Positions 8,416 to 60,394 of a stretch of DNA of 64,000 nucleotides are shown here, piece after piece. The DNA is taken from contig CM000208.1 in assembly GCA_000002445.1 (NCBI GenBank), forward strand, positions 2,016,001-2,080,000. Reading direction: 5' to 3'. The position numbers and the translations under genes are program-made. The stretch comes from Trypanosoma brucei (taxonomy: Eukaryota). Below the pieces are notes generated by a model that worked only from the letters and a program-made list of their open reading frames with translations, was not told the origin of the DNA and ran no database searches. The first letter of the stretch is position 1. The number at the start of each line of letters is the position of its first letter.

Positions 8416-9540
8416 CTACTTAGGTCCCAATGTTGAGGCCAGGGAATCACATAAAGACTTCAGTTTTCTGTTCTCGTTCTCTAGTCTGTGTGTTTCATTT
8501 TGCTTTGAGCGAACTTGATGTCTAAGGTCTTTAAGTTTAAGAGTATTTTTCTCCATTTGTGAGCCCACGCTCTCTCGTAGTTCATCTGTTGTGCTCCTTA
8601 GTTGAGTTACTTTTTCTTCCAAGTGTCTCAAATACTCACGGAGGTGCTCCCTCTCCTTCTGAACGTCGGTAGACTGACAGGAAGCCACATTCATCGAAAT
8701 TGAAGCCGGAGTGCTGGCACTGTCACTCCCTTTCGTATCACACAAACACTCCGTGCTGCCGAGAGTATCCTGAAGCAGCTGGTTCGCTCTTTTTATATTT
8801 TCAAGCTCTTCTTGAAGCAAGTTTCTCTCTTTTTGTATTTTCTCTACCGCATCTAATGTCGTTTTTTCATGAATATCGCGTAACAGGGCCACATTCTTCT
8901 TTGACTCAAGGAGAATTTCATCAGTTCTTTGCTTTTTAAGCTCCATCACACCCATGATCTCGCGTTTCTTTCTTAAGCAATGTCCAAACGTCCGCTCACG
9001 CTCACGGGACAACTCACGGATTGCCTTAAGCACCTCCCTTGCTCGATTGTCCTCTTCATGGGGAACGCACTGAACGCTGTGCTTCAGTGATGCATGCAAA
9101 TCGTTAAGCATCGAAATTAGCCTCACCAGGGTAACACGTTGCAATGCATTCTTGTTCTGAGGTTCTCTGCTCAGGTCGTTTATCTGAATTACGAGGTCTT
9201 TAACTTGTGCTTCTGCCGCGTTGAGACCTGCGTCCGCTTCAGACAATTCATTCAAGTACTCGTCGCGCTCCGAATATTTGGTTGCTTCTTCCTGAAGCAC
9301 TAGCCGCTCAGTGTGCGCAATTGTATTACTTCGGATCGCTTCTTCAAGACTTTCTTCTGCTTTTTTCAAACCTTCCTTGCTTTCTCCAATTGAATTCTCT
9401 GCATCCGCTATGGAGGAAGACAAAGAGAGTATCACCTGATTGCGCTGCTGCATGACCTTCTCTTGGATCAGTAAAGCTTCCTCCAGCCCTCTAAGCTGTT
9501 CTTTAAGCTCTTCAATGGATTCCCTTTGCTTAGCGTCCAT
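8416..9540 (-). CDS. Coiled-coil protein, hypothetical (374 aa)
   Basis: Heptad-rich, E/L/K/Q-dominated sequence throughout (LKEQLRGLEEALLIQEKVMQQRNQ... LQEELENIKRANQLLQDTL). Clean long ORF in the orientation of the surrounding transcription unit. Confidence 0.45.
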   Translation of the reverse strand: MDAKQRESIEELKEQLRGLEEALLIQEKVMQQRNQVILSLSSSIADAENSIGESKEGLKKAEESLEEAIRSNTIAHTERLVLQEEATKYSERDEYLNELSEADAGLNAAEAQVKDLVIQINDLSREPQNKNALQRVTLVRLISMLNDLHASLKHSVQCVPHEEDNRAREVLKAIRELSRERERTFGHCLRKKREIMGVMELKKQRTDEILLESKKNVALLRDIHEKTTLDAVEKIQKERNLLQEELENIKRANQLLQDTLGSTECLCDTKGSDSASTPASISMNVASCQSTDVQKEREHLREYLRHLEEKVTQLRSTTDELRESVGSQMEKNTLKLKDLRHQVRSKQNETHRLENENRKLKSLCDSLASTLGPK

Positions 9541-9773: not shown

Positions 9774-10595
9774 TCATGGCTTTCGCTGTAACACGAATGC
9801 GTAGTGAACCCCCATAAGGCACCTCCGTTCCGCTATAATTGAGTAGCAGTTGTCCTCTGCCACCCACCTTCCGTAATCGTGAGTAAGGTTCATTGAGCTG
9901 CGCGTCGCAGCACCGAACCAGCGAGTGAGCGAGGCTAACAGCGGCCATCTGGGTTTTCCAAAGTCCATAAGAAGAACATACCCTCCCTCCTTAACGTAGG
10001 CCGCGGCTGAGTTCAACATCTTCCGCGCCCCTTCCTGACCCATGTTCAACAATTCATTCCGAATCACAACGGTATCGTATTTCCTGAAGTCGGGCATTTC
10101 GGTCTCCCTCCGCTCAACAGTGTCAAAAGTTATAGAGCTCCCAGCCCAGTTATAATCATTCTTCAACATAAAACCCAAAGTCAGAGCCCGCCGCCTTTCA
10201 GTTTGCTCCTCTTCAGAAAGCGACAAGTCGGTTTTGTATTCGTCGTCATCAACCCTTTCCTTTACAATAAATTCGACACGAACAGCATTTGACATCTCGT
10301 AATATCTCACATCCCTTGCGTCTGCCACCTTTGGAGTGAGATCAAGCACTCGGCCTCTGCAATACTTCCGGTACATCCATGACACCGAACGATACATACA
10401 CCATTGGGGTATCAAACTCAAGCCCCAAATCACTGCAGAGCCAGTGATAAATGTCACTAGAAAAAGATTCCGCCCTTGAACTATCTTCAAGTATTTATCC
10501 TGTGGTATTTGAGTAGGTTCGTACCATTGTGCATCAGCACCATGTACACTGACAACCTTCCCCTGCATGCCGTTGAAAGCACTGGTGGCGCACAA
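9774..10595 (-). CDS. Hypothetical protein. Weak resemblance to SAM-dependent methyltransferase motif II/III (AAYVKEGGYVLLMDFGKP), N-terminal hydrophobic segment
   Basis: 273-aa ORF in transcription-unit orientation. Motif-level resemblance only; no GxGxG motif found. Confidence 0.3.
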   Translation of the reverse strand: MCATSAFNGMQGKVVSVHGADAQWYEPTQIPQDKYLKIVQGRNLFLVTFITGSAVIWGLSLIPQWCMYRSVSWMYRKYCRGRVLDLTPKVADARDVRYYEMSNAVRVEFIVKERVDDDEYKTDLSLSEEEQTERRRALTLGFMLKNDYNWAGSSITFDTVERRETEMPDFRKYDTVVIRNELLNMGQEGARKMLNSAAAYVKEGGYVLLMDFGKPRWPLLASLTRWFGAATRSSMNLTHDYGRWVAEDNCYSIIAERRCLMGVHYAFVLQRKP

Positions 10596-10666
10596 AGGTG
10601 TTGTTAAGTCATGGATTTCTGTACAAGAGCTCGTACAACAGCAAGGAACGCCTCTTCAAAGTGCGC

Positions 10667-10702
10667 AAAACAACAACAACAATGATAATATTAATAATAA
10701 TA
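10667..10702. repeat. Short (CAA)n followed by (TAA/ATA)n microsatellite in the intergenic region upstream of the 9774-10595 gene
   Basis: caacaacaacaacaatgataatattaataataataac read directly. Confidence 0.8.
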
Positions 10703-10787
10703 ACGGTGGAGACACTACAGTCTCGCAAACAATAAACGCAAGTCTACACTAAGCAATAACGAGATACCCAACACGCTACTGGTTGCC

Positions 10788-11354
10788 TCACCTGTAAAAG
10801 GAGAGCACGAACCTCCAGTACCATATCGTCAACGGGTCCAACGGCAGTCCATCAAACCACTTTATTTTCACGAACGGCAACCAGTGCGGACCACTTGCAC
10901 AACTAGAAGTTAGGCACAGCAACCACCTGATTGTTTTGTCAAGTGTAACAAAGTCAAAAATTTCACCAATTAATGAACGATCCATTAAGGAGAATTCTCC
11001 CAACAAATGTTGCGAACCCGTCTTCTCCCTCAGCTGGCCATCTAAAGAGCGAACGTCGTTAAGAAAACCTGCACAGGGCCGCCTTTCCTGAAAGGACCAC
11101 GATAACTCAGCCATGTAAAGAAACCCAACAACGGAGCTTGCTAATCTCTGGGAAGCCCGTACCGCCATTCCAAGTCCGAAGTAGCCGCACGAAGCACCGA
11201 TCAATGCGAAATAAACCCCGAGGGGGTTGAATACACCATTAATAGTACGGCATATAACGGCGCGCTCTCCTATATTTGGTGTGTAGCCTTCTCTTTCTAT
11301 TTGTTTTAACAAACAAAGAAACGCATCCTCTTCAGGCAAAGATGACTGACGCAT
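10788..11354 (-). CDS. Hypothetical membrane protein (188 aa)
   Basis: Hydrophobic stretches (VYFALIGASCGYFGLGMAV; VVGFLYMAELSW). ORF in transcription-unit orientation. Confidence 0.3.
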   Translation of the reverse strand: MRQSSLPEEDAFLCLLKQIEREGYTPNIGERAVICRTINGVFNPLGVYFALIGASCGYFGLGMAVRASQRLASSVVGFLYMAELSWSFQERRPCAGFLNDVRSLDGQLREKTGSQHLLGEFSLMDRSLIGEIFDFVTLDKTIRWLLCLTSSCASGPHWLPFVKIKWFDGLPLDPLTIWYWRFVLSFYR

Positions 11355-11568
11355 ACCATCTAAATAATACTGGTCGGTGTATCAAGCATATAAAACAGAA
11401 AAAAAAAAAGAAAAAACAGTATAAACGTAGGACAAAACTAGGATTTACAACAACTCACACAACTAACTCCAAGCAAGGATTTTTTTCCTCTCCACCAAAA
11501 AAGTATTAAAAATATAGGGAATCCTCAGATGATTGACAAAAAATTTATAACTTAAGTGATTGCTTTAC

Positions 11569-13791
11569 TTACTGCCCTCCTCTAGCACGACCACGCCCCC
11601 GGCCGCGCCCGTAGTCTGCTGCGCCACGGAAGTCGCTGCCACCTCCGCGTCCAAAACCTCGTCCCCCACGCATATACCCCTGGCCCCGTCCTCCACGGAA
11701 ATCGTTGCCATGCCCGCCCTTCTCGCAGTAGTGGGCAATATTTTCCACACTTCTCGCAGTAGCCTCCACCAGGTACTGCAGGCGTGAAATGTTGCTTCTA
11801 TCCACGTGAAGGTACTGATCATCTCTGTCCCACACAGCAATGAGGGGGGTGTTATTTTCTGATATAATACCGTTAATGACATGCTTAACTGTGCTCTCAG
11901 TTATATCAAACTTCTTGGCCATAATCTCCACGGATATCGTCGCAAAGCTACGCCTGCTGTTGTAACAGAATATCTGTAGGGCTGCTTCCTTCAAACGTTG
12001 TAGAAATGTGTCTCGTGCCTCAGTACCTCTCGGCATGTTATCCCAGACCTTCATGTTTTTGATAACTTCACTTGAGCGCGCATAATCACCCAGCTTCAAG
12101 GCAGTGTAAGCAGCTGTTATTTGCTCTCTGAACTCGATAGGCTCGCCCAGGAGTGGCTGAAACTGCATCTGATTTATTACACGGTAGAAATAGCGGTGAT
12201 GGTGTGTAACCTCGTAGGGCTTTTTTGCTTCGTCCACTGTGCCGACTACAAGCGTTGAAAGCATCGTTGCAAGCTCCAGCTGACTATAAGGGATGTGGGC
12301 GTGTGGAGGCAGTAGTAAATCACGGTACCTCAACTCCTCATCCCCCTTCTCATCTTTTAAATTCGGCAGCTTTTGGCCTATCAATACCTCAGGACCTTCC
12401 CACGAATTCCATAAAGGACTCAGGAGCTCATACGCTTGCATGATGTCACCCATAATGAAGGATGCCAAACCCAGTTGTGCGACAGCTCTGTTATAGAGGA
12501 CAGAATTATGGTTGGAGTTGCACAGCTTCTCTGCCCCACCAGAGCGTCGTATGAGATCCCGTCCCTCCCGGTACTTCCCTTCTAGTCCCATTTGGTAAAC
12601 CAAATGAAGCAGAGCAAGTGATTTGGACTCGTCATCACCGATGAGGAGGAGTTGCTCGTAGAGCGATCGCACTGTCTCAATAACACTGTCACTGACGGCC
12701 TCACGCTGTCCCGGAGGCATCTTGCCAAACAAAATCTCGTGGGCCTCCTGTCTCCTTGACCCAAGGATGTCAACAAGAATCTGGCAACAAACCGCTCTGC
12801 CGCGGCTGTTATCCCTATAATAGCCGAAGAGAGCGTCAGCAATAGCCACCAGCCGGTTCTCCAAGTGAACAATCTCGATATAGTCGGATGGAATACCGTC
12901 TTTAAATTGCGTAATGCGTCGCAGGTGTTTGCTGAGACTCTGCAACAGAGCATGCAACCCACCCTTAATGAATGCATCCCTTTTGTTGAGCTTGTCGGAA
13001 AATTTGTCCGATAGCCTTATTCCGGGATTTTCAACTATCAGACCGAAGCATTCCTCCAACGTATCACAGGATTTTGCCCACGTTTTGGTACTGACGTAGA
13101 CCTCGCGATTATCCTCTTCGAGAAGGGCATCCGCAACGATACCACATGTCGTGATCTGCAGTGCCTTATACCCTTTCCTTTTGCATTCGTTAGCAAGCTT
13201 ACGGTATTTGGACGCTTTCTTACCGGTACACGTCACGGACTCCCGCAGTTGCTTTACAATGTCGTCTTCAGTTAATTCCTTTTCCGCCTCCTCCTCGTCA
13301 CCTTCATCACCATCTTCTTCGTCGTACAAACGTTCAATATCGTCCTTGTACGTCTCCATCGCTTCTTCAACAGCCTTGATCAGCCCCTTGAGGGAACGAA
13401 ACTCCTCTGGCTTTGCAAATGATTCTCTCTCGGATAGGTGTGTCTTGAGATCTGGAGTGTTTCGGAGGCACTCCAGGAATGGGAAAGGTGTCGACTGAAA
13501 TCTCCGCTTGTGGATATCCGATTTCTCGCGAAGCTCTTTGAATGATTGCTCCGCTCCGACCCATGTCCCCTGATCAACGTTGAAGTCAAAAACATCGGCG
13601 TTTGTCTGTATTTCGTTCAATGACTTCTCACGCCGAGAAAGGACGACACGCTGTTCCTCTGCAGCTTCATCATCGGTTATTTCGAACCATTTTGGATCGA
13701 TCTGGGCGGTGTTCCTTTCTACCTGATCGTCGCGCTGGATAACTTCGTCGATACTTTCGTCACTGTCACTTACGTTAAAGAAATCCGCCAT
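11569..13791 (-). CDS. EIF3C: Translation initiation factor eIF3 subunit c (PCI domain, C-terminal RGG-repeat tail), copy A
   Basis: 740 aa. PCI-type C-terminal region (FATISVEIMAKKFDITESTVKHVINGIISENNTPLIAVWDRDDQYLHVD). Tail GGRGQGYMRGGRGFGRGGGSDFRGAADYGRGRGRGRARGGQ. Length and architecture of trypanosomatid eIF3c (recall). Confidence 0.65.
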   Translation of the reverse strand: MADFFNVSDSDESIDEVIQRDDQVERNTAQIDPKWFEITDDEAAEEQRVVLSRREKSLNEIQTNADVFDFNVDQGTWVGAEQSFKELREKSDIHKRRFQSTPFPFLECLRNTPDLKTHLSERESFAKPEEFRSLKGLIKAVEEAMETYKDDIERLYDEEDGDEGDEEEAEKELTEDDIVKQLRESVTCTGKKASKYRKLANECKRKGYKALQITTCGIVADALLEEDNREVYVSTKTWAKSCDTLEECFGLIVENPGIRLSDKFSDKLNKRDAFIKGGLHALLQSLSKHLRRITQFKDGIPSDYIEIVHLENRLVAIADALFGYYRDNSRGRAVCCQILVDILGSRRQEAHEILFGKMPPGQREAVSDSVIETVRSLYEQLLLIGDDESKSLALLHLVYQMGLEGKYREGRDLIRRSGGAEKLCNSNHNSVLYNRAVAQLGLASFIMGDIMQAYELLSPLWNSWEGPEVLIGQKLPNLKDEKGDEELRYRDLLLPPHAHIPYSQLELATMLSTLVVGTVDEAKKPYEVTHHHRYFYRVINQMQFQPLLGEPIEFREQITAAYTALKLGDYARSSEVIKNMKVWDNMPRGTEARDTFLQRLKEAALQIFCYNSRRSFATISVEIMAKKFDITESTVKHVINGIISENNTPLIAVWDRDDQYLHVDRSNISRLQYLVEATARSVENIAHYCEKGGHGNDFRGGRGQGYMRGGRGFGRGGGSDFRGAADYGRGRGRGRARGGQ

Positions 13792-14527
13792 TTTACCTGA
13801 AAGCTCGATGCTGCTAAGATACCTGCGGTGTACATGCGGATGAGAAAAGGAGGTGAGAACAAAAAGAACAATTGAGGAAAATAATGTATCCGCGCATGAT
13901 AAGCGGGGGCTTGCTCAACCACCGGAGCGAGGTTAGCCACAACGATACTTAACGCATGTTGATATTAAAAAAAGGAGACAGAAAACAAGTAAGCGAATAA
14001 TCTGTTGAGAGAATATGCTCCCGTGTTTTTTTTCCAATTTGGCTTCCTCTCAGCTTCAATGATGGTGTCGACTCCCATAGTCCAAGCATCTTCAACTTGC
14101 AAAAGGTTAGTCATAAGAATATGGTCACTTACGGTAATCTCAGTCATCAACTTCAGTTTCAAAAGGCCTTCCAGCTGCAGCGGTACGAATATCTCTGCTG
14201 ATCCTGAGGCCCCTGGCACTCTCGCCATGCGTGTGTGTTGTCACTGCGACACCCGCGCTACATACAGCACCTGCTCCGCATGAGGGCTGTGACGTAGCCA
14301 TAAAGCGTAACGAGTGTGCGAGCTTGTCGAGAAAGGCGCATAGTTTTGCAAGTATGATGTCCGTTCTCTCAACTGCGGTCCAGTTTTTCTCCTGCATGTC
14401 CTGAATCTCTTTCAACATTTCATCAAGATGCATTGTGAGCTGCGGGTGAAAGAACAGGGGAAATGGTAACAAAAAATTAAAGGCGTCTAAGAAAAAGCAC
14501 AGTTATTGGCTTACCATTATAACCAAT

Positions 14528-14992
14528 CTATCCGTCAAACATCCTTTTTATTTTGGTGGAAATATGTTCATTAGCAAACGAAACAACGGCCGCATTCGCA
14601 CCAACAATCTGATGCTGCTCAACGCCTTTGACATGTCTCAAATTTAACTCAACCCATAAAGAAGTGGCCCCACGTATAATGACGAACCGGGATGGTCTGT
14701 GCGTCACACTGCACCCTGGTACCTCAGAAACAGGAGGCACAGTAATGCTCACTCGTATCGTTTCACCAAATAGTAAAAACCCGTTCATTTTTATGTAAGC
14801 CTCTTGAGCAGACACAGATTCCGCGTAAGTCACCAGTGCCTCACCTACGTCGACATCCAAGAGAACGTCATACAACGACCCGAGTTCCCCAAAGCAGCGT
14901 AGGAGTGCTAATCTGCAAAACTCTACACCAAATGTAAACTTTAAACCCTGAACGCGAAGCGCCTCCATCACTCCCCCATCAAGGCATAACAA
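14528..14992 (-). CDS. Small RRM-like protein, hypothetical, copy A (154 aa, ends at a TAG that is CAG in copy B)
   Basis: LRVQGLKF (RNP2-like) ... GEALVTYAESVSAQEAYIKMNGFLLFGETIRVS (RNP1-like region). Confidence 0.3.
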   Translation of the reverse strand: MLCLDGGVMEALRVQGLKFTFGVEFCRLALLRCFGELGSLYDVLLDVDVGEALVTYAESVSAQEAYIKMNGFLLFGETIRVSITVPPVSEVPGCSVTHRPSRFVIIRGATSLWVELNLRHVKGVEQHQIVGANAAVVSFANEHISTKIKRMFDG

Positions 14993-15212
14993 TGGAAAAG
15001 TGGTTTAATCTAAAGTAATACCAACAAATAGGCAGCAAAGCAAGAGGCGAAAGTTAATACAGCAGTTCCAGCACAAATACATAATATATCAACAACTAAA
15101 CCAGTAACATAAACAGATAATTTACGGTCATAAACATATGATTAGCAGTCGGTTAGCGTAATTACGTTTAATATTTAAAGTAGAGCTGTAACAACTTAAG
15201 TGATTGCTTTAC

Positions 15213-17435
15213 TTACTGCCCTCCCCTAGCACGACCACGCCCCCGGCCGCGCCCGTAGTCTGCTGCGCCACGGAAGTCGCTGCCACCTCCGCGTCCAAAA
15301 CCTCGTCCCCCACGCATATACCCCTGGCCCCGTCCTCCACGGAAATCGTTGCCATGCCCGCCCTTCTCGCAGTAGTGGGCAATATTTTCCACACTTCTCG
15401 CAGTAGCCTCCACCAGGTACTGCAGGCGTGAAATGTTGCTTCTATCCACGTGAAGGTACTGATCATCTCTGTCCCACACAGCAATGAGGGGGGTGTTATT
15501 TTCTGATATAATACCGTTAATGACATGCTTAACTGTGCTCTCAGTTATATCAAACTTCTTGGCCATAATCTCCACGGATATCGTCGCAAAGCTACGCCTG
15601 CTGTTGTAACAGAATATCTGTAGGGCTGCTTCCTTCAAACGTTGTAGAAATGTGTCTCGTGCCTCAGTACCTCTCGGCATGTTATCCCAGACCTTCATGT
15701 TTTTGATAACTTCACTTGAGCGCGCATAATCACCCAGCTTCAAGGCAGTGTAAGCAGCTGTTATTTGCTCTCTGAACTCGATAGGCTCGCCCAGGAGTGG
15801 CTGAAACTGCATCTGATTTATTACACGGTAGAAATAGCGGTGATGGTGTGTAACCTCGTAGGGCTTTTTTGCTTCGTCCACTGTGCCGACTACAAGCGTT
15901 GAAAGCATCGTTGCAAGCTCCAGCTGACTATAAGGGATGTGGGCGTGTGGAGGCAGTAGTAAATCACGGTACCTCAACTCCTCATCCCCCTTCTCATCTT
16001 TTAAATTCGGCAGCTTTTGGCCTATCAATACCTCAGGACCTTCCCACGAATTCCATAAAGGACTCAGGAGCTCATACGCTTGCATGATGTCACCCATAAT
16101 GAAGGATGCCAAACCCAGTTGTGCGACAGCTCTGTTATAGAGGACAGAATTATGGTTGGAGTTGCACAGCTTCTCTGCCCCACCAGAGCGTCGTATGAGA
16201 TCCCGTCCCTCCCGGTACTTCCCTTCTAGTCCCATTTGGTAAACCAAATGAAGCAGAGCAAGTGATTTGGACTCGTCATCACCGATGAGGAGGAGTTGCT
16301 CGTAGAGCGATCGCACTGTCTCAATAACACTGTCACTGACGGCCTCACGCTGTCCCGGAGGCATCTTGCCAAACAAAATCTCGTGGGCCTCCTGTCTCCT
16401 TGACCCAAGGATGTCAACAAGAATCTGGCAACAAACCGCTCTGCCGCGGCTGTTATCCCTATAATAGCCGAAGAGAGCGTCAGCAATAGCCACCAGCCGG
16501 TTCTCCAAGTGAACAATCTCGATATAGTCGGATGGAATACCGTCTTTAAATTGCGTAATGCGTCGCAGGTGTTTGCTGAGACTCTGCAACAGAGCATGCA
16601 ACCCACCCTTAATGAATGCATCCCTTTTGTTGAGCTTGTCGGAAAATTTGTCCGATAGCCTTATTCCGGGATTTTCAACTATCAGACCGAAGCATTCCTC
16701 CAACGTATCACAGGATTTTGCCCACGTTTTGGTACTGACGTAGACCTCGCGATTATCCTCTTCGAGAAGGGCATCCGCAACGATACCACATGTCGTGATC
16801 TGCAGTGCCTTATACCCTTTCCTTTTGCATTCGTTAGCAAGCTTACGGTATTTGGACGCTTTCTTACCGGTACACGTCACGGACTCCCGCAGTTGCTTTA
16901 CAATGTCGTCTTCAGTTAATTCCTTTTCCGCCTCCTCCTCGTCACCTTCATCACCATCTTCTTCGTCGTACAAACGTTCAATATCGTCCTTGTACGTCTC
17001 CATCGCTTCTTCAACAGCCTTGATCAGCCCCTTGAGGGAACGAAACTCCTCTGGCTTTGCAAATGATTCTCTCTCGGATAGGTGTGTCTTGAGATCTGGA
17101 GTGTTTCGGAGGCACTCCAGGAATGGGAAAGGTGTCGACTGAAATCTCCGCTTGTGGATATCCGATTTCTCGCGAAGCTCTTTGAATGATTGCTCCGCTC
17201 CGACCCATGTCCCCTGATCAACGTTGAAGTCAAAAACATCGGCGTTTGTCTGTATTTCGTTCAATGACTTCTCACGCCGAGAAAGGACGACACGCTGTTC
17301 CTCTGCAGCTTCATCATCGGTTATTTCGAACCATTTTGGATCGATCTGGGCGGTGTTCCTTTCTACCTGATCGTCGCGCTGGATAACTTCGTCGATACTT
17401 TCGTCACTGTCACTTACGTTAAAGAAATCCGCCAT
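15213..17435 (-). CDS. EIF3C: Translation initiation factor eIF3 subunit c, copy B (identical protein to copy A)
   Basis: 100% identical 740-aa translation. One synonymous difference near the stop (AGA vs AGG Arg; 11581 t vs 15225 c). Confidence 0.65.
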   Translation of the reverse strand: MADFFNVSDSDESIDEVIQRDDQVERNTAQIDPKWFEITDDEAAEEQRVVLSRREKSLNEIQTNADVFDFNVDQGTWVGAEQSFKELREKSDIHKRRFQSTPFPFLECLRNTPDLKTHLSERESFAKPEEFRSLKGLIKAVEEAMETYKDDIERLYDEEDGDEGDEEEAEKELTEDDIVKQLRESVTCTGKKASKYRKLANECKRKGYKALQITTCGIVADALLEEDNREVYVSTKTWAKSCDTLEECFGLIVENPGIRLSDKFSDKLNKRDAFIKGGLHALLQSLSKHLRRITQFKDGIPSDYIEIVHLENRLVAIADALFGYYRDNSRGRAVCCQILVDILGSRRQEAHEILFGKMPPGQREAVSDSVIETVRSLYEQLLLIGDDESKSLALLHLVYQMGLEGKYREGRDLIRRSGGAEKLCNSNHNSVLYNRAVAQLGLASFIMGDIMQAYELLSPLWNSWEGPEVLIGQKLPNLKDEKGDEELRYRDLLLPPHAHIPYSQLELATMLSTLVVGTVDEAKKPYEVTHHHRYFYRVINQMQFQPLLGEPIEFREQITAAYTALKLGDYARSSEVIKNMKVWDNMPRGTEARDTFLQRLKEAALQIFCYNSRRSFATISVEIMAKKFDITESTVKHVINGIISENNTPLIAVWDRDDQYLHVDRSNISRLQYLVEATARSVENIAHYCEKGGHGNDFRGGRGQGYMRGGRGFGRGGGSDFRGAADYGRGRGRGRARGGQ

Positions 17436-18121
17436 TTTACCTGAAAGCTCGATGCTGCTAAGATACCTGCGGTGTACATGCGGATGAGAAAAGGAGGTGA
17501 GAACAAAAAGAACAATTGAGGAAAATAATGTATCCGCGCATGATAAGCGGGGGCTTGCTCAACCACCGGAGCGAGGTTAGCCACAACGATACTTAACGCA
17601 TGTTGATATTAAAAAAAGGAGACAGAAAACAAGTAAGCGAATAATCTGTTGAGAGAATATGCTCCCGTGTTTTTTTTTCCAATTTGGCTTCCTCTCAGCT
17701 TCAATGATGGTGTCGACTCCCATAGTCCAAGCATCTTCAACTTGCAAAAGGTTAGTCATAAGAATATGGTCACTTACGGTAATCTCAGTCATCAACTTCA
17801 GTTTCAAAAGGCCTTCCAGCTGCAGCGGTACGAATATCTCTGCTGATCCTGAGGCCCCTGGCACTCTCGCCATGCGTGTGTGTTGTCACTGCGACACCCG
17901 CGCTACATACAGCACCTGCTCCGCATGAGGGCTGTGACGTAGCCATAAAGCGTAACGAGTGTGCGAGCTTGTCGAGAAAGGCGCATAGTTTTGCAAGTAT
18001 GATGTCCGTTCTCTCAACTGCGGTCCAGTTTTTCTCCTGCATGTCCTGAATCTCTTTCAACATTTCATCAAGATGCATTGTGAGCTGCGGGTGAAAGAAC
18101 AGGGGAAATGGTAACAAAAAA

Positions 18122-18637
18122 TTAAAGGCGTCTAAGAAAAAGCACAGTTATTGGCTTACCATTATAACCAATCTGTCCGTCAAACATCCTTTTTATTTTG
18201 GTGGAAATATGTTCATTAGCAAACGAAACAACGGCCGCATTCGCACCAACAATCTGATGCTGCTCAACGCCTTTGACATGTCTCAAATTTAACTCAACCC
18301 ATAAAGAAGTGGCCCCGCGTATAATGACGAACCGGGATGGTCTGTGCGTCACACTGCACCCTGGTACCTCAGAAACAGGAGGCACAGTAATGCTCACTCG
18401 TATCGTTTCACCAAATAGTAAAAACCCGTTCATTTTTATGTAAGCCTCTTGAGCAGACACAGATTCCGCGTAAGTCACCAGTGCCTCACCTACGTCGACA
18501 TCCAAGAGAACGTCATACAACGACCCGAGTTCCCCAAAGCAGCGTAGGAGTGCTAATCTGCAAAACTCTACACCAAATGTAAACTTTAAACCCTGAACGC
18601 GAAGCGCCTCCATCACTCCCCCATCAAGGCATAACAA
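18122..18637 (-). CDS. Small RRM-like protein, hypothetical, copy B (171 aa, 17-aa C-terminal extension relative to copy A)
   Basis: Same sequence as 14528-14992 but codon CAG (18168-18170 complement) replaces the TAG stop, adding QIGYNGKPITVLFLRRL. Confidence 0.3.
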   Translation of the reverse strand: MLCLDGGVMEALRVQGLKFTFGVEFCRLALLRCFGELGSLYDVLLDVDVGEALVTYAESVSAQEAYIKMNGFLLFGETIRVSITVPPVSEVPGCSVTHRPSRFVIIRGATSLWVELNLRHVKGVEQHQIVGANAAVVSFANEHISTKIKRMFDGQIGYNGKPITVLFLRRL

Positions 18638-18869
18638 TGGAAAAGTGGTTTAATCTAAAGTAATACCAACAAATAGGCAGCAAAGCAAGAGGCGAAAGTT
18701 AATACAGCAGTTCCAGCACAAATACATAATATATCAACAACTAAACCAGTAACATAAACAGATAATTTACGGTCATAAACATATGATTAGCAGTCGGTTA
18801 GCGTAATTACGTTTAATATGTTAGAAGATGATATGCCAAGTAAGAAACAGGTGAAAAACACTGGTTACG

Positions 18870-19721
18870 TTATGATAGCGGCACCCATAGTAACAATTTG
18901 TTGTTGAGTCTTTTTGTTTTTTCTGATTCGTTGATAGCTGATTGGGGGACAGTTATGAAAGTTGTGCCATCAGGGGCGGAAAAGACGACTCCAAGATGAT
19001 GAAGGGCAAGGGCAGTATCTTCAATGTTTATCGCCGATTTCGATGAAATTGTACGTAGTGTTAGGGGTAGTCGTTCCTTATGTATTGCAAACATGGCTCT
19101 TAACAATTCCTCACGCCATATTCTGGAGAATATACGCTTTCCTCCGGTGCTTAACGGTCTTTCAGGTGTTCCAGCTATTCCCTCAATCTTAGCCATTTCA
19201 TACGATAATTCTACAAGAAGTGAACCATAACCCTTTGATCGGTACGGTGGCAACACCATTAGGCACGAAAGTGTGTTTGTGCAAGATAGTGTTTTTCTCC
19301 ATTCCTTGCTGAAGTATCCTGCAAAATGATAACCATAATCATCTAATTCAAAAATAACTATGAATGCGAAAAAATGTAGGTCATCTAAAGTAGTTTTTTC
19401 ATCCAAAAAGAATTTGGATAGATAGGCAATCCTCCTTGTGAAGGAACTACAGACCGCTTTCCGCCCGTCGATCTCCATAATGACGCACTTCCGTTCGTCG
19501 CATCGATATATTTCATCACCAGGAATCCAGTAGCGATAAGTACATATTTCAGCGTGCTTAATGAGGTCAGGCAGCGAGGAGAACTGCGAAAGACAAGCTT
19601 CACATAAGAAAATTTTTTCAGTGTCCTTTATAGCTTGCTGGACGAAACCTGTAACGGAATGTGCCTGATATTCCCGAAACAGCGTTTTGATGACAGTGTC
19701 TCCCGACCTCTGTCGTTTCAT
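18870..19721 (-). CDS. HAT3: MYST-family histone acetyltransferase (283 aa)
   Basis: C2HC MYST zinc finger LCEACLSQFSSLPDLIKHAEIC. Acetyl-CoA-binding motif YRSKGYGSLLVELSYEMAK (compare QRKGYGKLLIEFSYELSK). Short catalytic-domain-only protein as in trypanosome HATs. Symbol by recall of chr10 HAT3; family call is firm. Confidence 0.75.
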   Translation of the reverse strand: MKRQRSGDTVIKTLFREYQAHSVTGFVQQAIKDTEKIFLCEACLSQFSSLPDLIKHAEICTYRYWIPGDEIYRCDERKCVIMEIDGRKAVCSSFTRRIAYLSKFFLDEKTTLDDLHFFAFIVIFELDDYGYHFAGYFSKEWRKTLSCTNTLSCLMVLPPYRSKGYGSLLVELSYEMAKIEGIAGTPERPLSTGGKRIFSRIWREELLRAMFAIHKERLPLTLRTISSKSAINIEDTALALHHLGVVFSAPDGTTFITVPQSAINESEKTKRLNNKLLLWVPLS

Positions 19722-19775
19722 TCCACCTATACGGAAGGGAATTAATCAGAGACGATAAAGGGTAAGGGGGGGGGG

Positions 19776-19786
19776 GAAATATACTC
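19776..19786 (+). repeat. G11 homopolymer run in the intergenic region just upstream of the HAT start
   Basis: ggtaagggggggggggggaaat read directly. Confidence 0.9.
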
Positions 19787-20168
19787 GTGCAATGTGTAAA
19801 ATATTCACCAAATTAAAGTACAATGGGCTAAGGCAAATCAGGGAAAACATTCACGTTAGCGCCCTAGAAAACAGAAATAAAAATACCTAGCCCAAACAAT
19901 ACCCTCCACTACGCACCATTTCCACCTCGGTATCCTAATAAATCGATAGCATGTATATACTTAGGGGATGCACAAACCAACCAGCATAACACAGATGCCT
20001 GCGAGGAAAAAATAATAACAATAATCGTTACATCGCCTCCTATTCTTCATATATACATATGTTATATATAATAGACTGTGTTTGAACGCAAATAATAAAT
20101 AGACTGCTGTAACACTCCTACGAACCATACCATTAATCCCTGTTTCTTTTTTCCCTTCTACTGGGGTA

Positions 20169-55404: not shown

Positions 55405-56418
55405 CCAGTGCAGGAGCTCACTCACGATAACACAAGCAGTTGTGGGGTGGTCGTGCGCCCTGTATTCTTTTTTTTTATTTTTTTCTATAAACTTTTCCCC
55501 TGACTTTCAAATAATTTGGATCCACTTCCGCGGGAGCAATAGACGGTGCCCGTCAAGGGGCATCGTTGCCGCTTCGGTGTAGCTACCAACTATGTACTTA
55601 TGCGTTCCCCACTCTTTAGGTGGTGAGCGCACTCTAGACACTTTTCTGTTGCTTCCCGCTAACGTTTTTTCTTCTGCCTTTTTCCCCTTTGCTTTCGTGA
55701 TTCAAAAAAAAAAAGGTACCCACACGCGAGCAACGGATGCAAGCGGGGTAATTTTCACGCTCATGCGCATACCACAAAGCGGGAGCGTTACGTTCAGCAA
55801 ATGTTACGCATGTCACTGATGTGGCATTAGGTAAGAAGAACAGCTCGGTGCGCATATTTCTCACAACACCGCCGGTGTGCACAAGCAAACTGCAAATCAA
55901 ACATGTAATTAACTCACCGAGCGAAAACCCCGAGGCGGCGTACTGGGCCGACCGCGTAGGACACGAGATGACTTAAGCAAAATTGGAAACAAAAAAACAA
56001 TACTGTAAGAGTTTCTGATAAGACAAACGGTAAATGTTAGTCTGTAAGACTAAGCATCTATACGCTTATACACATATCGTATGTTAAGATAACACTGACG
56101 GTTTCCACTGAATTCGCATCTAGACACAGGGGACCATATAACTGTAGGTGAAAAGAGAGGTAGGATAAAGTCGATATAAATAAAAAAAAGTTTTAATAAG
56201 GTCGGTACTGTAAAAAAAAAAAAGCGACACTAATGGTGTGCTGCTTCGGTCAGCTCTCCCTTTGCTTTCACACTGTGTGGAGTCTGTGTATCACTGCTTC
56301 AGCTGCACGATGCCCTTCATCTTCGTGGAATCATATTCTTTCTCCCTCCCATATTGTTTTATTATTGTCAGTTACGCAATCAGGCAAACTCATATAAATT
56401 GTCCAGTGACCCAAAACA

Positions 56419-58002
56419 ATGACTGAGCGTCGTGATAACGTTTCCCACGCACCTGATGCCATCGAGGGCCCAAACGATGGTGCTCACGCCGAGGACACAT
56501 CGCCGGGTTTCTTCTCATTCGAAAATCTTGGTGTGGCGCAGGTACAAGTCGTCGGAGGAACTCTGAACGGATATGTTATTGGGTATGTTGCTGTGTATTT
56601 GCTGCTGTACCTGACGGCAACTGAGTGCAAATTTACTACGGAGGGTGCATGTGGCGGAGCTAAGATATATGGGTGCAAATGGAGCGGCACGACATGCAAA
56701 TTCGAGAATCCCAAATGTAGTGAAGGCTCCGATCCTTCCGATTCTTGCAAAAACGAGGTGGCCTACACGTCTGTTTACAGCGGTATCTTTGCCTGCGCCA
56801 TGATCGTTGGTTCAATGGTTGGGTCGATTATAGCCGGGAAGTGCATCACTACGTTTGGACTGAAGAAATCATTCATCATTGTCTCAGTCACCTGTACTAT
56901 AGCTTGTGTTGTGGTGCAGGTAGCGATTGAGTACAATAATTACTACGCACTGTGCACTGGACGAGTGCTCATAGGTCTCGGCGTTGGTATTTTATGCTCT
57001 GTTTGCCCCATGTATGTGAATGAGAACGCACATCCCAAACTCTGCAAGATGGACGGTGTGTTGTTTCAGGTGTTCACAACACTTGGCATTATGCTTGCCG
57101 CGATGCTGGGTCTGATTTTGGACAAAACAGGAGCTAGTAAAGAAGAGGCAAACATGGCTGGGCGGTTACACGTTTTTTCAGCGGTACCGCTTGGATTGTC
57201 CGTCGCCATGTTCCTAGTGGGCATGTTCCTCCGCGAAAGCACTGCAACATTTTCCCAAGACGATGATGGTAAGGCTGATGGCGGAATGGACCCCAACGAG
57301 TATGGCTGGGGGCAGATGTTGTGGCCACTGTTCATGGGCGCTGTAACCGCTGGTACGCTGCAACTGACTGGGATCAACGCGGTAATGAACTATGCGCCGA
57401 AGATTACAGAGAACCTCGGAATGGATCCATCACTTGGCAACTTTCTGGTTATGGCATGGAATTTTGTGACATCCCTTGCGGCTATTCCACTTGCGTCACG
57501 CTTTACGATGCGTCAAATGTTTATCACCTGTTCCTTTGTTGCGTCATGTATGTGCTTGTTCCTATGTGGAATCCCAGTGTTCCCCGGTGTTGCTGAAGAA
57601 AAGGTGAAGAATGGTGTGGCAACTACTGGTATCGCCCTGTTCATAGCTGCATTTGAGTTTGGTGTTGGGTCGTGCTTCTTCGTGCTTGCACAGGACCTTT
57701 TCCCACCATCATTCCGACCTAAGGGCGGTTCGTTTGTTGTCATGATGCAGTTTATCTTTAACATCCTTATTAACCTATTGTATCCCATTACAACCGAAGC
57801 TATATCTGGTGGGCCAACTGCCAACCAGGACAAGGGACAGGCCGTTGCATTCATACTGTTTGGTTTAATTGGCTTGATTTGTTCGGTTCTGCAGTTCTTT
57901 TACTTGTATCCATATGATGCCAATCAGGACCATGAGAATGACCATGGTGGTGAGCCTGTGGAACAGAAGACATATCCCGTTGAAGCATCTCCGCGGAACT
58001 AA
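56419..58002 (+). CDS. THT1: Hexose transporter, THT1-type (527 aa, MFS sugar porter)
   Basis: MTERRDNVSHAPDAIEGPNDGAHAEDTSPGFFSFENLGVAQVQVVGGTLNGYVIGYVAVYLLLY... 527 aa with the Cys-rich first exofacial loop ECKFTTEGACGGAKIYGCKWSGTTCKFENPKCSEG. Matches T. brucei THT1 as recalled. 12-TM sugar-porter layout. Confidence 0.9.
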   Translation: MTERRDNVSHAPDAIEGPNDGAHAEDTSPGFFSFENLGVAQVQVVGGTLNGYVIGYVAVYLLLYLTATECKFTTEGACGGAKIYGCKWSGTTCKFENPKCSEGSDPSDSCKNEVAYTSVYSGIFACAMIVGSMVGSIIAGKCITTFGLKKSFIIVSVTCTIACVVVQVAIEYNNYYALCTGRVLIGLGVGILCSVCPMYVNENAHPKLCKMDGVLFQVFTTLGIMLAAMLGLILDKTGASKEEANMAGRLHVFSAVPLGLSVAMFLVGMFLRESTATFSQDDDGKADGGMDPNEYGWGQMLWPLFMGAVTAGTLQLTGINAVMNYAPKITENLGMDPSLGNFLVMAWNFVTSLAAIPLASRFTMRQMFITCSFVASCMCLFLCGIPVFPGVAEEKVKNGVATTGIALFIAAFEFGVGSCFFVLAQDLFPPSFRPKGGSFVVMMQFIFNILINLLYPITTEAISGGPTANQDKGQAVAFILFGLIGLICSVLQFFYLYPYDANQDHENDHGGEPVEQKTYPVEASPRN

Positions 58003-58807
58003 AGCACTGAAGCTTAATTCATCTGGTGAGGTATTGTTTGTCTCGCCCGCATGACTCATGTGCTGGGGAAGTGTAAAAGGGGGGATGGCGACGAAGTTGT
58101 TTCTTGCATATTTCTCGCGCATCTGATGAATTAAAAAAAAAACGATTATTGCATAACATGATTATCTGACCACAAAACGTTTTGTAGTTTGAAGGAGGTA
58201 ATTGGGTAATGTTTTAGAGGTCGTCAATATTAGTGGCGTTAATGAAAACGGATTTTAAAATTTACTTCTTTTTGCTGTTTTATGTTGTCTATATATACTT
58301 TTGTTTTTCCATCAAGTCGACTGTGCCTATTATTATCTGCTCCGTTTTGTAGCAGCGGATGGACAGATGGATGAAGTGATATATGAGGGCAGTATGCTGT
58401 TAGTGTGTATGTGCACTCTAAAGCTGCTGCTGTGTCGGGATAGTGATTTACGTAGGGCAGTTGATTTTTCTTTTTTCTTTTTTTTTGTAATATTATACAA
58501 TTGAAGACGTTTCTTAATATTTTTTTGAAAAAAAAACATTGTGTTGTTTTTTATTGGTGTACAGGGGACAACTCGTTTTATTAAAACCCTTTGTCGTTGG
58601 GCTGTGCCCCAATTCTGGCGTCACGCGATGTTCTTCTATAATGATCTCTTACTTTACCCGTAACACCACATTAATGGTTTATTTCACTTTTTTGGTTGAT
58701 TTTGTTTGGATTGCTGCCGCCACATTACGTCTCCCTTCCATATTGTTTTATTATTGTCAGTTACGCAATCAGGCAAACTCATATAAATTGTCCAGTGACC
58801 CAAAACA

Positions 58808-60394
58808 ATGACTGAGCGTCGTGATAACGTTTCCCACGCACCTGATGCCATCGAGGGCCCAAACGATGGTGCTCACGCCGAGGACACATCACCGGGTTTC
58901 TTCTCATTCGAGAATCTTGGTGTGGCGCAAGTACAAGTCGTCGGAGGAACTCTGAACGGATATGTTATTGGGTATGTTGCTGTGTATTTGCTGCTGTACC
59001 TGACGGCAACTGAGTGCAAATTTACTACGGAGGTTGCATGTGGCGGAGCTAAGATATATGGGTGCAAATGGAGCGGCACGACATGCAAATTCGAGAATCC
59101 CAAATGTAGTGAAGGCTCCGATCCTTCCGATTCTTGCAAAAACGAGGTGGCCTACACGTCTGTTTACAGCGGTATCTTTGCCTGCGCCATGATCGTTGGT
59201 TCAATGGTTGGGTCGATTATAGCCGGGAAGTGCATCACTACGTTTGGACTGAAGAAATCATTTATCATTGTCTCAATCACTTGTACTATAGCTTGTGTTG
59301 TGGTGCAGGTAGCGATTGAGTACAATAATTACTACGCACTGTGCACTGGACGAGTGCTCATAGGTCTCGGCGTTGGTATTTTATGCTCTGTTTGCCCCAT
59401 GTATGTGAATGAGAACGCACATCCCAAACTCTGCAAGATGGACGGTGTGTTGTTTCAGGTGTTCACAACACTTGGCATTATGCTTGCCGCGATGCTGGGT
59501 CTGATTTTGGACAAAACAGGAGCTAGTAAAGAAGAGGCAAACATGGCTGGGCGGTTACACGTTTTTTCAGCGGTACCGCTTGGATTGTCCGTCGCCATGT
59601 TCCTAGTGGGCATGTTCCTCCGCGAAAGCACTGCAACATTTTCCCAAGACGATGATGGTAAGGCTGATGGCGGAATGGACCCCAACGAGTATGGCTGGGG
59701 GCAGATGTTGTGGCCACTGTTCATGGGCGCTGTAACCGCTGGTACGCTGCAGCTGACTGGGATCAACGCGGTAATGAACTATGCGCCGAAGATTACAGAG
59801 AACCTCGGAATGGATCCATCACTTGGCAACTTTCTGGTTATGGCATGGAATTTTGTGACATCCCTTGTGGCTATTCCACTTGCGTCACGCTTTACGATGC
59901 GTCAAATGTTTATCACCTGTTCCTTTGTTGCGTCATGTATGTGCTTGTTCCTATGTGGAATCCCAGTGTTCCCCGGTGTTGCTGAAGAAAAGGTGAAGAA
60001 TGGTGTGGCAACTACTGGTATCGCCCTGTTCATAGCTGCATTTGAGTTTGGTGTTGGGTCGTGCTTCTTCGTGCTTGCACAGGACCTTTTCCCACCATCA
60101 TTCCGACCTAAGGGCTCTTCGTTTGTTGTCATGATGCAGTTTATCTTTAACATCCTTATTAACCTATTGTATCCCATTACAACCGAAGCTATATCTGGTG
60201 GGCCAACCGGCGACCAGGATAAGGGACAGGCCGTTGTATTCATACTGTTTGGTTTAATTGGCTTGATTTGTTTCGTTCTGCAGTTCTTTTACTTGTATCC
60301 ATATGATGCCAATCAGGACCATGAGAATGACCATGGCACTGAGCCCGTGGAACGTATTGCTTCTCCCGTTGATGTCCCCACGCCGCGGAACTAA
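58808..60394 (+). CDS. THT1: Hexose transporter, chimeric: THT1-type N-terminal ~two-thirds, THT2-type C-terminal ~100 aa and 3' flank (528 aa)
   Basis: N-terminus and loop identical to the first copy except E/V (EVACGG) and V/I (VSITCT). From about residue 430 onward it matches the third copy (KGSSFVV, PTGDQDKGQAVVFILF...CFVLQ, ...HGTEPVERIASPVDVPTPRN). Its 3' flank after ggatggcgacg continues taaccgatattgttagagggcgggaattcc as in copy 3, not aagttgtttcttgcatatttc as in copy 1. Confidence 0.85.
   Translation: MTERRDNVSHAPDAIEGPNDGAHAEDTSPGFFSFENLGVAQVQVVGGTLNGYVIGYVAVYLLLYLTATECKFTTEVACGGAKIYGCKWSGTTCKFENPKCSEGSDPSDSCKNEVAYTSVYSGIFACAMIVGSMVGSIIAGKCITTFGLKKSFIIVSITCTIACVVVQVAIEYNNYYALCTGRVLIGLGVGILCSVCPMYVNENAHPKLCKMDGVLFQVFTTLGIMLAAMLGLILDKTGASKEEANMAGRLHVFSAVPLGLSVAMFLVGMFLRESTATFSQDDDGKADGGMDPNEYGWGQMLWPLFMGAVTAGTLQLTGINAVMNYAPKITENLGMDPSLGNFLVMAWNFVTSLVAIPLASRFTMRQMFITCSFVASCMCLFLCGIPVFPGVAEEKVKNGVATTGIALFIAAFEFGVGSCFFVLAQDLFPPSFRPKGSSFVVMMQFIFNILINLLYPITTEAISGGPTGDQDKGQAVVFILFGLIGLICFVLQFFYLYPYDANQDHENDHGTEPVERIASPVDVPTPRN

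What the first reader, a model, noticed from the sequence alone, without database searches (positions are those of the whole stretch)
11549..18818. Near-perfect 3.64-kb tandem duplication carrying eIF3c plus a small RRM-like gene
Two head-to-tail units (11549-15174, 15193-18818) are >99.9% identical. Each encodes an identical 740-aa eIF3c (PCI domain plus RGG tail) and a small RRM-like ORF. I found only three differences by eye: a synonymous Arg codon near the eIF3c stop, a TAG/CAG stop-codon change in the small ORF, and a T8/T9 homopolymer. A duplicated core translation-initiation subunit is unusual. Such identity implies very recent duplication, ongoing gene conversion, or an assembly artefact.
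Basis: seen in the sequence. Interest (0 to 1): 0.5.

Follow-up and report, generated by a model that had tools for sequence, protein, structure and literature searches.

The report
Known T. brucei eIF3c–U1A tandem duplication
A 3.6-kb stretch carrying a translation-initiation gene (eIF3c) and a small splicing-factor gene (U1A) sits twice, head to tail, on Trypanosoma brucei chromosome 10; the duplication is real but is already in the reference annotation and is an ordinary young gene duplication for this parasite.

Summary
Unit 1 is 11549-15174, an 18-bp filler is 15175-15192, and unit 2 is 15193-18819. The units differ at four sites, not three. All genes are on the minus strand. The window matches T. 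b. brucei TREU927 chromosome 10. Both copies are deposited in GenBank (EAN78233-EAN78236). Published tables list them as eIF3c Tb927.10.8270/8290 and U1A Tb927.10.8280/8300. The "small RRM-like gene" is therefore the trypanosome U1 snRNP protein U1A.

An assembly artefact is unlikely. The same 18-bp junction appears in an independent de novo Illumina assembly of T. equiperdum OVI.

T. vivax, T. cruzi, T. theileri, T. melophagium and T. conorhini each have one U1A-eIF3c pair in the same gene order. The two TREU927 copies share 12-14 substitutions against the DAL972 and IVM-t1 haplotype. They differ from each other by only 0.08%. The duplication is therefore young and confined to the T. brucei group, or kept uniform by gene conversion.

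Two incremental points emerged. The TAG in U1A copy 1 is a derived nonsense mutation that removes 17 conserved residues. The upstream eIF3c copy has a chimeric 3' UTR.

The finding is already known and of low interest.

The parts
11549..15174 (.). Duplication unit 1 (3626 bp), the downstream unit in the direction of transcription
15175..15192 (.). 18-bp junction filler TTAAAGTAGAGCTGTAAC between the units. It has no counterpart at either outer boundary and no template elsewhere in the window.
   Evidence: The same filler is in T. equiperdum OVI scaffold CZPT02001358.1.
15193..18819 (.). Duplication unit 2 (3627 bp), the upstream unit in the direction of transcription
11569..13791 (-). eIF3c copy 1 (740 aa; EAN78233, inferred to be Tb927.10.8270). 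It keeps the ancestral 3' flank. The unit boundary lies 20 nt after its stop codon.
15213..17435 (-). eIF3c copy 2 (740 aa, identical protein; EAN78235, inferred to be Tb927.10.8290). Its 3' flank is chimeric: 20 nt shared, then the 18-bp filler, then sequence that normally follows the HAT gene.
14528..14968 (-). U1A copy 1, truncated to 146 aa by a TAG at 14530-14528 (EAN78234, inferred to be Tb927.10.8280)
18122..18613 (-). U1A copy 2, full length at 163 aa like all orthologues (EAN78236, inferred to be Tb927.10.8300)
14530..14530 (-). Derived A (TAG stop). Copy 2, OVI, IVM-t1 and DAL972 all have G (CAG) at the matching position, 18175 in copy 2.
11581..11581 (-). Synonymous Arg difference in eIF3c: T here, C at 15225. 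T is the state in IVM-t1 and DAL972.
14672..14672 (-). Synonymous Arg difference in U1A: A here, G at 18317. G is the state in IVM-t1 and DAL972.
14018..14025 (.). T8 homopolymer in the U1A-eIF3c intergenic region; copy 2 has T9, ending at 17670. It shifts the frame of a non-conserved 87/98-aa ORF.
15010..15050 (-). Candidate polypyrimidine tract plus AG (15011-15010) upstream of U1A copy 1. The identical element sits at 18655-18695 upstream of copy 2. This is read from the sequence and is not shown to be used.
18870..19721 (-). Flanking single-copy MYST-family acetyltransferase (EAN78237). The unit boundary lies about 50 nt after its stop codon.
10788..11354 (-). Flanking single-copy 188-aa gene downstream of eIF3c copy 1, conserved in synteny across species

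Best explanation
This is a genuine tandem segmental duplication inside one polycistronic transcription unit of T. b. brucei TREU927 chromosome 10. The duplicated segment begins about 50 nt after the stop codon of the MYST acetyltransferase gene. It ends 20 nt after the eIF3c stop codon. It therefore carries the whole U1A gene, the U1A-eIF3c spacer and the whole eIF3c coding sequence. On the minus strand the gene order is HAT, then U1A (163 aa), eIF3c, an 18-bp filler, U1A (146 aa), eIF3c, and then the 188-aa gene.

The event is confined to the T. brucei group and looks young. The paralogues differ by 0.08%, against about 0.4-0.5% between TREU927 and the DAL972/IVM-t1 haplotype.

The following consequences are inferred, not shown. 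Because trypanosomes lack gene-specific promoters, the duplication probably doubles the template dose of eIF3c. The two eIF3c mRNAs would encode identical proteins. The upstream copy would end in a chimeric 3' UTR borrowed from the HAT-U1A spacer. Both U1A copies keep the same 206 nt upstream of the ATG, including the candidate polypyrimidine/AG splice-acceptor signal. The downstream U1A copy has since gained a nonsense mutation that removes 17 conserved C-terminal residues, so it is probably decaying.

The locus is already annotated and cited as Tb927.10.8270/8290 (eIF3c) and Tb927.10.8280/8300 (U1A).
For: Structure and differences.

Gene identities:
- eIF-3c_N scores 86.5 bits against a 24.2-bit cut-off.
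- The eIF3c ORF matches T. cruzi eIF3c chain 7ase_C at E=6.9e-282 and human eIF3c at about 1e-33.
- The small gene has an RRM_1 hit.
- Sources name its orthologues 'U1A small nuclear ribonucleoprotein'.

Annotation and literature:
- EAN78233 and EAN78235 are both the 740-aa eIF3c. EAN78234 is the 146-aa U1A, EAN78236 the 163-aa U1A and EAN78237 the acetyltransferase. All lie on a 4,054,025-bp TREU927 contig.
- PMC4320536 lists Tb927.10.8270/8290 as eIF3c, 740 aa.
- PMC11613528 lists U1A as Tb927.10.8280/8300.

Independent support for the junction:
- T. equiperdum OVI scaffold CZPT02001358.1 reads: left flank, 32 nt of the unit, 10 N, about 31 nt of the unit end, the identical 18-bp filler, a full unit, then the right flank.
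- That assembly is de novo Velvet at k=33 from OVI reads. The break points are the k-1 signature of a collapsed tandem repeat.

Lineage restriction: one U1A-eIF3c pair in conserved synteny is found in four T. cruzi assemblies, T. melophagium, T. theileri, T. vivax and T. conorhini.

Age: both TREU927 copies share 12 substitutions against both IVM-t1 and DAL972. Two more are seen against IVM-t1 inside the DAL972 gap. The copies differ from each other by 3 substitutions and 1 indel.

Truncation is derived: all orthologues are 163 aa with a conserved C-terminus, and G at 14530 is the state everywhere else.

Context: tandem arrays are common in T. brucei and are read as a dosage device (PMC1855330). 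There are 20 cases that are single-copy in T. b. gambiense but tandem in T. b. brucei (PMC2854126).
Against: No reads, read depth or long-read assembly of TREU927 could be examined here.

Two other Trypanozoon assemblies show one copy and no filler: IVM-t1 and DAL972, which has a 100-N gap inside eIF3c. This could mean the duplication is polymorphic. It could also mean the repeat was collapsed. IVM-t1 had only about 7,500 PacBio reads, and DAL972 is a draft ordered on TREU927.

T. congolense, the nearest outgroup, could not be checked.

The dosage effect, the use of the chimeric 3' UTR and the loss of function of the truncated U1A are inferences. Nothing here measures expression.
Confidence: 0.85

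Rival explanations
1. The duplication is older and has been kept nearly identical by repeated gene conversion or unequal crossing-over between the two units (concerted evolution). On this view the low divergence does not date the event.
For: Concerted evolution is reported as widespread in T. brucei tandem arrays (PMC1855330). Both TREU927 copies share all 12-14 haplotype-specific substitutions against DAL972 and IVM-t1, which homogenisation would also produce. The duplication predates the split of TREU927 and OVI, because they share the same junction.
Against: Every non-Trypanozoon species examined has one copy, so the event cannot be very old. Similarity ends abruptly at both outer boundaries, with no decayed homology beyond them. 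DAL972 and IVM-t1 are assembled as single copy on a different haplotype. With only two copies and four differences, no conversion tract can be detected. The apparent mosaic of copy-1 and copy-2 states in OVI is a collapsed consensus and is not evidence of conversion.
Confidence: 0.1
2. The duplication is an assembly artefact of the TREU927 reference, for example two allelic haplotypes stacked in tandem or a mis-joined clone.
For: The near-identity with a handful of SNPs resembles allelic variation. Two other Trypanozoon assemblies show one copy. No reads could be inspected.
Against: Stacked alleles would not create a novel junction with an 18-bp filler. The identical filler, flanked by the unit end and the unit start, was assembled de novo from reads of a different isolate, T. 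equiperdum OVI, with Velvet at k=33.
Confidence: 0.03

Closest known systems
The annotated locus Tb927.10.8270-8300 on T. b. brucei TREU927 chromosome 10 (eIF3c x2, U1A x2)
   Same: The proteins are identical in sequence to EAN78233 and EAN78235 (eIF3c, 740 aa), EAN78234 (146 aa) and EAN78236 (163 aa), in the same order next to acetyltransferase EAN78237. The gene IDs are listed in pairs in PMC4320536 and PMC11613528.
   Different: Nothing differs. The window matches this locus. The assignment of individual Tb927 numbers to individual copies is inferred from the order of the accession numbers.
T. brucei tandem gene arrays (Jackson 2007, PMC1855330), such as the hexose-transporter-like array at 56-64 kb in this window
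   Same: The copies lie head to tail in a polycistronic unit and are near-identical. The proposed purpose is gene dosage, with possible homogenisation by gene conversion.
   Different: There are only two copies. The unit carries two unrelated genes, so this is a segmental duplication rather than a one-gene array. The array comparison in PMC2854126 used the arrays with more than 3 copies defined in the 2007 survey, so this pair was probably not analysed there.
Single-copy ancestral locus PSP1 / 124-aa gene / MYST HAT / U1A / eIF3c / 189-aa gene in other Trypanosoma species
   Same: The gene order, orientation and protein lengths match (U1A 163 aa; eIF3c 710-721 aa).
   Different: Those species have one U1A-eIF3c pair and no 18-bp filler.
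Human U1A / U2B'' (N-terminal RRM)
   Same: The N-terminal half of the small protein aligns to RRM1 of human U1A, at E of about 5e-4 with a profile of 9 trypanosome sequences.
   Different: The similarity is weak, and the best PDB hit is another RRM protein. The C-terminal half matches no family. Trypanosome U1 snRNA lacks the stem-loop II that U1A binds elsewhere (PMC4041458).

Membership tests
eIF3 subunit c (eIF3c/NIP1/eIF3 subunit 8) | eIF-3c_N domain above the Pfam gathering score | tested here: met
   PF05470 scores 86.5 bits against a 24.2-bit cut-off, E=1.8e-24
eIF3 subunit c (eIF3c/NIP1/eIF3 subunit 8) | C-terminal PCI domain | tested here: inconclusive
   PF01399 scores 17.8 bits, below the 22-bit cut-off. 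The alignment to human eIF3c chains covers query residues 217-718, which includes that region.
eIF3 subunit c (eIF3c/NIP1/eIF3 subunit 8) | Full-length homology to an eIF3c seen inside an eIF3 or pre-initiation complex structure | tested here: met
   [quoted passage not shown] Human eIF3c chains match at E of about 1e-33.
Trypanosome U1 snRNP protein U1A | N-terminal RRM | tested here: met
   PF00076 scores 24.3 bits against a 20.7-bit cut-off on the full protein
Trypanosome U1 snRNP protein U1A | Same gene as the protein the literature calls T. brucei U1A | tested here: met
   PMC11613528 gives U1A as Tb927.10.8280/8300. These IDs sit between and after the eIF3c IDs 8270/8290. Sources name the identical 163-aa sequence 'U1A small nuclear ribonucleoprotein'.
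Trypanosome U1 snRNP protein U1A | Physical association with U1 snRNA / U1 snRNP | not testable with these tools
   This is known only from cited biochemistry (references in PMC4041458). The primary paper, PMC2934664, is not held.
Genuine tandem segmental duplication | Head-to-tail copies with a novel junction recovered independently of this assembly | tested here: met
   An identical 18-bp filler between unit end and unit start is present in the de novo T. equiperdum OVI assembly
Genuine tandem segmental duplication | Single copy at the syntenic site in outgroups | tested here: met
   T. cruzi (four assemblies), T. theileri, T. melophagium, T. vivax and T. conorhini. T. congolense was not available.
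Genuine tandem segmental duplication | About two-fold read depth and junction-spanning reads in TREU927 itself | not testable with these tools
   No read data are accessible
Concerted evolution by gene conversion | Paralogues within a strain closer to each other than to positional orthologues in strains that also carry both copies | not testable with these tools
   The only other assembly with the junction (OVI) has the two copies collapsed

The most novel reading that the evidence does not exclude
The two units may already be diverging in function. The two eIF3c genes encode the same protein but have different 3' UTRs: one ancestral, one chimeric and derived from the HAT-U1A spacer. That difference could give them different mRNA stability or different life-cycle-stage regulation. 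The 146-aa U1A, which lacks 17 conserved C-terminal residues, could be expressed as a variant or interfering U1 snRNP or polyadenylation-coupling factor rather than being a dying copy.
Probability: 0.08. Interest if true: 0.35.

Novelty: already known. Interest (0 to 1): 0.1.

Why it matters
It matters little beyond bookkeeping. The duplication is in the reference annotation and in published gene tables.

Some practical points follow:
- Reads, RNAi fragments and peptides cannot tell the two eIF3c genes apart. The exceptions are the synonymous site at 11581/15225 and the distinct 3' UTRs.
- Knock-outs must remove four eIF3c alleles in strains that carry the duplication.
- Tb927.10.8280 should be treated as a truncated, probably decaying U1A copy. 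Tb927.10.8300 is the ancestral-type gene.
- Short-read assemblies collapse or break at this locus, as seen in OVI and possibly in DAL972 and IVM-t1.

The locus is also a clean small example of how segmental duplication in a polycistronic unit gives one paralogue a new 3' UTR.

Tried and rejected
- **Template for the 18-bp filler.** I searched the window on both strands for a source. Only scattered 10-mers turned up by chance, so the origin of the filler is unexplained.
- **RNA families.** An Rfam scan of 10500-20000 at E<=0.1 found no RNA family. There is no hidden ncRNA of any curated Rfam family in the unit.
- **U1A structure.** An AlphaFold2 model built from the 9-sequence alignment had mean pLDDT 36.7 and is unusable. 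I could not show that the lost C-terminus is a strand of a second RRM. Pfam finds no family in the C-terminal half.
- **T. congolense locus.** The protein is not on record in the contig index.
- **The 146-aa U1A in other assemblies or Logan contigs.** It is not on record. This is uninformative, because assemblers pop or break at such variants.
- **More Trypanozoon assemblies.** A look-up with the flanking 188-aa gene returned only OVI again.
- **Supplements of the T. b. gambiense genome paper.** The gene IDs do not occur in the text held.
- **Primary U1A paper.** PMC2934664 is not held.
- **An early misreading of my own.** I first took the OVI contig break, 32 nt into the unit, as caused by the 11581 SNP. 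I also took the OVI copy's mix of copy-1 and copy-2 states as a sign of gene conversion. I rejected both once the assembly method was known (Velvet, k=33). The break is the k-1 boundary, and the OVI copy is a collapsed consensus.
- **The 87/98-aa ORF between U1A and eIF3c** (13965-14228 and 17577-17873). Some annotations call it a 97-aa gene. I rejected it as coding. The T8/T9 indel shifts its frame between the copies, no gene is called there in the non-Trypanozoon species checked (T. cruzi, T. theileri, T. melophagium, T. vivax, T. conorhini), and TREU927 has no accession for it.


Full report

Yes. A direct-repeat search and a self-BLAST of the window find one long direct repeat in this region. 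A global alignment with flanks fixes the limits. Unit 1 is 11549-15174 (3626 bp). An 18-bp filler, TTAAAGTAGAGCTGTAAC, is at 15175-15192. Unit 2 is 15193-18819 (3627 bp).

Outside these limits the flanks are no more alike than random sequence. Inside them there are four differences, not three:
- 11581 T / 15225 C: AGA/AGG Arg in eIF3c, synonymous.
- 14025 / 17670: a T8/T9 run in the spacer between the two genes.
- 14530 A / 18175 G: TAG stop versus CAG Gln in the small gene.
- 14672 A / 18317 G: CGT/CGC Arg in the small gene, synonymous.

The two 740-aa ORFs translate identically.

**2. What are the genes?**

All genes between about 8 and 22 kb are on the minus strand.

The 740-aa ORF is eIF3c. 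Pfam eIF-3c_N scores 86.5 bits against a 24.2-bit cut-off. The ORF matches the T. cruzi eIF3c chain 7ase_C at E=6.9e-282 and human eIF3c chains at about 1e-33. The PCI domain alone is below the Pfam threshold (17.8 bits against 22). The RGG-rich tail is plain in the translation.

The small gene has an N-terminal RRM. A profile of its trypanosome orthologues weakly matches RRM1 of human U1A (E about 5e-4). Sources name the identical 163-aa protein "U1A small nuclear ribonucleoprotein". PMC11613528 gives T. brucei U1A as Tb927.10.8280/8300. [quoted passage not shown] Its purification brought down the polyadenylation factor CPSF73.

The flanking genes are a MYST-family acetyltransferase (18870-19721) and a conserved 188-aa gene (10788-11354).

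**3. Where is the window from, and is the duplication already known?**

Exact-sequence look-up shows five consecutive accessions on a 4,054,025-bp contig of T. b. brucei TREU927. EAN78233 and EAN78235 are both the 740-aa eIF3c. EAN78234 is the 146-aa U1A, EAN78236 the 163-aa U1A and EAN78237 the acetyltransferase. The window therefore matches TREU927 chromosome 10, and both units are in the deposited annotation.

Rezende et al. 2014 (PMC4320536) list eIF3c as "Tb927.10.8270/Tb927.10.8290, 740 aa". Other studies use one ID or the other. By the order of the accessions, 8270 and 8280 are unit 1 and 8290 and 8300 are unit 2. That assignment is an inference.

**4. Is it an assembly artefact?**

That is unlikely. 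The T. equiperdum OVI scaffold CZPT02001358.1 reads: left flank, the first 32 nt of the unit, ten Ns, about 31 nt of the unit end, the identical 18-bp filler, one full unit, then the right flank.

That genome was assembled de novo from 2x150 Illumina reads with Velvet at k=33 (PMC5278650). The break points are what a k=33 graph gives when a tandem repeat is collapsed. OVI reads therefore contain the same junction from unit end through the filler to unit start.

Stacked alleles or a mis-join in TREU927 would not reproduce this in another isolate.

**5. How old is it and how widespread?**

The syntenic block PSP1 / 124-aa gene / MYST HAT / U1A / eIF3c / 189-aa / 265-aa / 373-aa genes holds a single U1A-eIF3c pair in these species:
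- four T. cruzi assemblies
- T. melophagium
- T. theileri
- T. vivax
- T. conorhini

T. congolense could not be retrieved.

Within Trypanozoon, IVM-t1 chromosome 10 shows one unit with no Ns and no filler. DAL972 shows one unit with a 100-N gap inside eIF3c, annotated as a 368-aa fragment. Neither proves absence. IVM-t1 had only about 7,500 PacBio reads on top of short reads. DAL972 is a draft ordered on TREU927, and its authors note the limits of assembly for copy number.

An alignment of all unit copies shows that both TREU927 copies and OVI share 12 substitutions against both IVM-t1 and DAL972. Two more are seen against IVM-t1 in the DAL972 gap. That is about 0.4-0.5% divergence. The two TREU927 copies differ by 3 substitutions in 3626 bp, or 0.083%.

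The simplest reading is a duplication on the TREU927/OVI haplotype lineage after it split from the DAL972/IVM-t1 haplotype. Homogenisation by gene conversion is the alternative. It is reported as common in T. brucei arrays (PMC1855330) and cannot be excluded with two copies and four differences.

**6. Anatomy and likely consequences**

Read on the minus strand, the upstream breakpoint is about 50 nt after the acetyltransferase stop codon. The downstream breakpoint is 20 nt after the eIF3c stop codon. The following consequences are inferred.

- **eIF3c 3' UTRs.** eIF3c copy 1 (11569-13791) keeps the ancestral 3' flank leading to the 188-aa gene. eIF3c copy 2 (15213-17435) has 20 shared nt, then the filler, then sequence that normally follows the acetyltransferase gene. 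Its 3' UTR is therefore chimeric. Its polyadenylation should be coupled to trans-splicing of U1A copy 1.
- **U1A upstream signals.** Both U1A copies keep the same 206 nt upstream of the ATG. This includes a pyrimidine-rich tract ending in AG (15011-15010 and 18656-18655), the likely splice-acceptor signal.
- **Dosage.** In an organism without gene-specific promoters, the duplication should raise the template dose of eIF3c (PMC1855330).

No expression data were available, so these steps are not shown.

**7. The "stop-codon change"**

All orthologues retrieved are 163 aa: T. congolense, T. theileri, T. melophagium, T. cruzi, T. rangeli and one unnamed Logan sequence. A partial T. grayi sequence also retains the conserved C-terminus. 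The consensus of that C-terminus is xIxYNGKPVxVLYLKxx. OVI, IVM-t1, DAL972 and TREU927 copy 2 all have G at the site.

The TAG in copy 1 is therefore a derived nonsense mutation that removes 17 conserved residues. So far it is seen only in TREU927, as EAN78234. I could not show which fold element is lost. The AlphaFold model was unusable (pLDDT 36.7), and the C-terminal half matches no Pfam family. The most likely status is an early-stage pseudogene made redundant by the intact copy.

**8. Other checks**

There is no Rfam family in 10500-20000. The filler has no template elsewhere in the window, so its origin is unexplained. The 87/98-aa ORF in the spacer is frame-shifted between the units by the T8/T9 indel. 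No gene is called there in the non-Trypanozoon species checked, so it is not a gene.

**9. Verdict**

The duplication is real, probably young, confined to the T. brucei group, and already annotated and cited. It is an ordinary example of trypanosome tandem duplication.

The incremental points are:
- the exact boundaries and the 18-bp filler
- the fourth difference between the units
- the independent junction support from OVI
- the single-copy state in five other Trypanosoma species
- the derived truncation of Tb927.10.8280
- the chimeric 3' UTR of the upstream eIF3c copy

Novelty: already known. Interest: about 0.1.

Noticed in passing
window 56341-63594 (+ strand): A second tandem array has units of about 2.4-2.6 kb at 90-98% identity. 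Each unit carries a 527-529-aa multi-pass membrane ORF (56419-58002, 58808-60394, 61370-62959). The first two are near-identical. The third diverges in the N-terminal half but is near-identical in the C-terminal half, which is a mosaic pattern. From memory this looks like the T. brucei hexose transporter THT1/THT2 array. I did not test it with Pfam.
   Followed up: partly
window about 22000-56000: Genes at 8-22 kb are on the minus strand and the transporter-like array at 56-64 kb is on the plus strand. A strand-switch region between polycistronic units must lie somewhere in between. I did not locate it.
   Followed up: no
L011 (T. b. gambiense DAL972 FN554973.1), 100-N gap at reverse-complement positions 9241-9340: The DAL972 reference has a gap inside eIF3c, which leaves a 368-aa 'fragment' annotation (CBH15918). 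The gap would span 1.1 kb if the locus is single-copy, or 4.8 kb if it is duplicated. The true copy number in DAL972 is therefore open.
   Followed up: partly
L009 (T. equiperdum IVM-t1 CM010681.1) compared with L010 (T. equiperdum OVI): The two 'T. equiperdum' assemblies carry different haplotypes at this locus. OVI is TREU927-like (99.9% identity). IVM-t1 shares all 12 informative substitutions with T. b. gambiense DAL972. IVM-t1 also has many indels relative to the window, a 741-aa eIF3c, and no called gene at the acetyltransferase position. These look like residual assembly errors.
   Followed up: partly
window 13965-14228 and 17577-17873 (minus strand): A non-conserved ORF in the U1A-eIF3c spacer is called as a 97-aa gene in the OVI and IVM-t1 annotations. 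It differs in frame and length (87 versus 98 aa) between the two TREU927 units because of the T8/T9 indel. It is probably a spurious gene call.
   Followed up: yes
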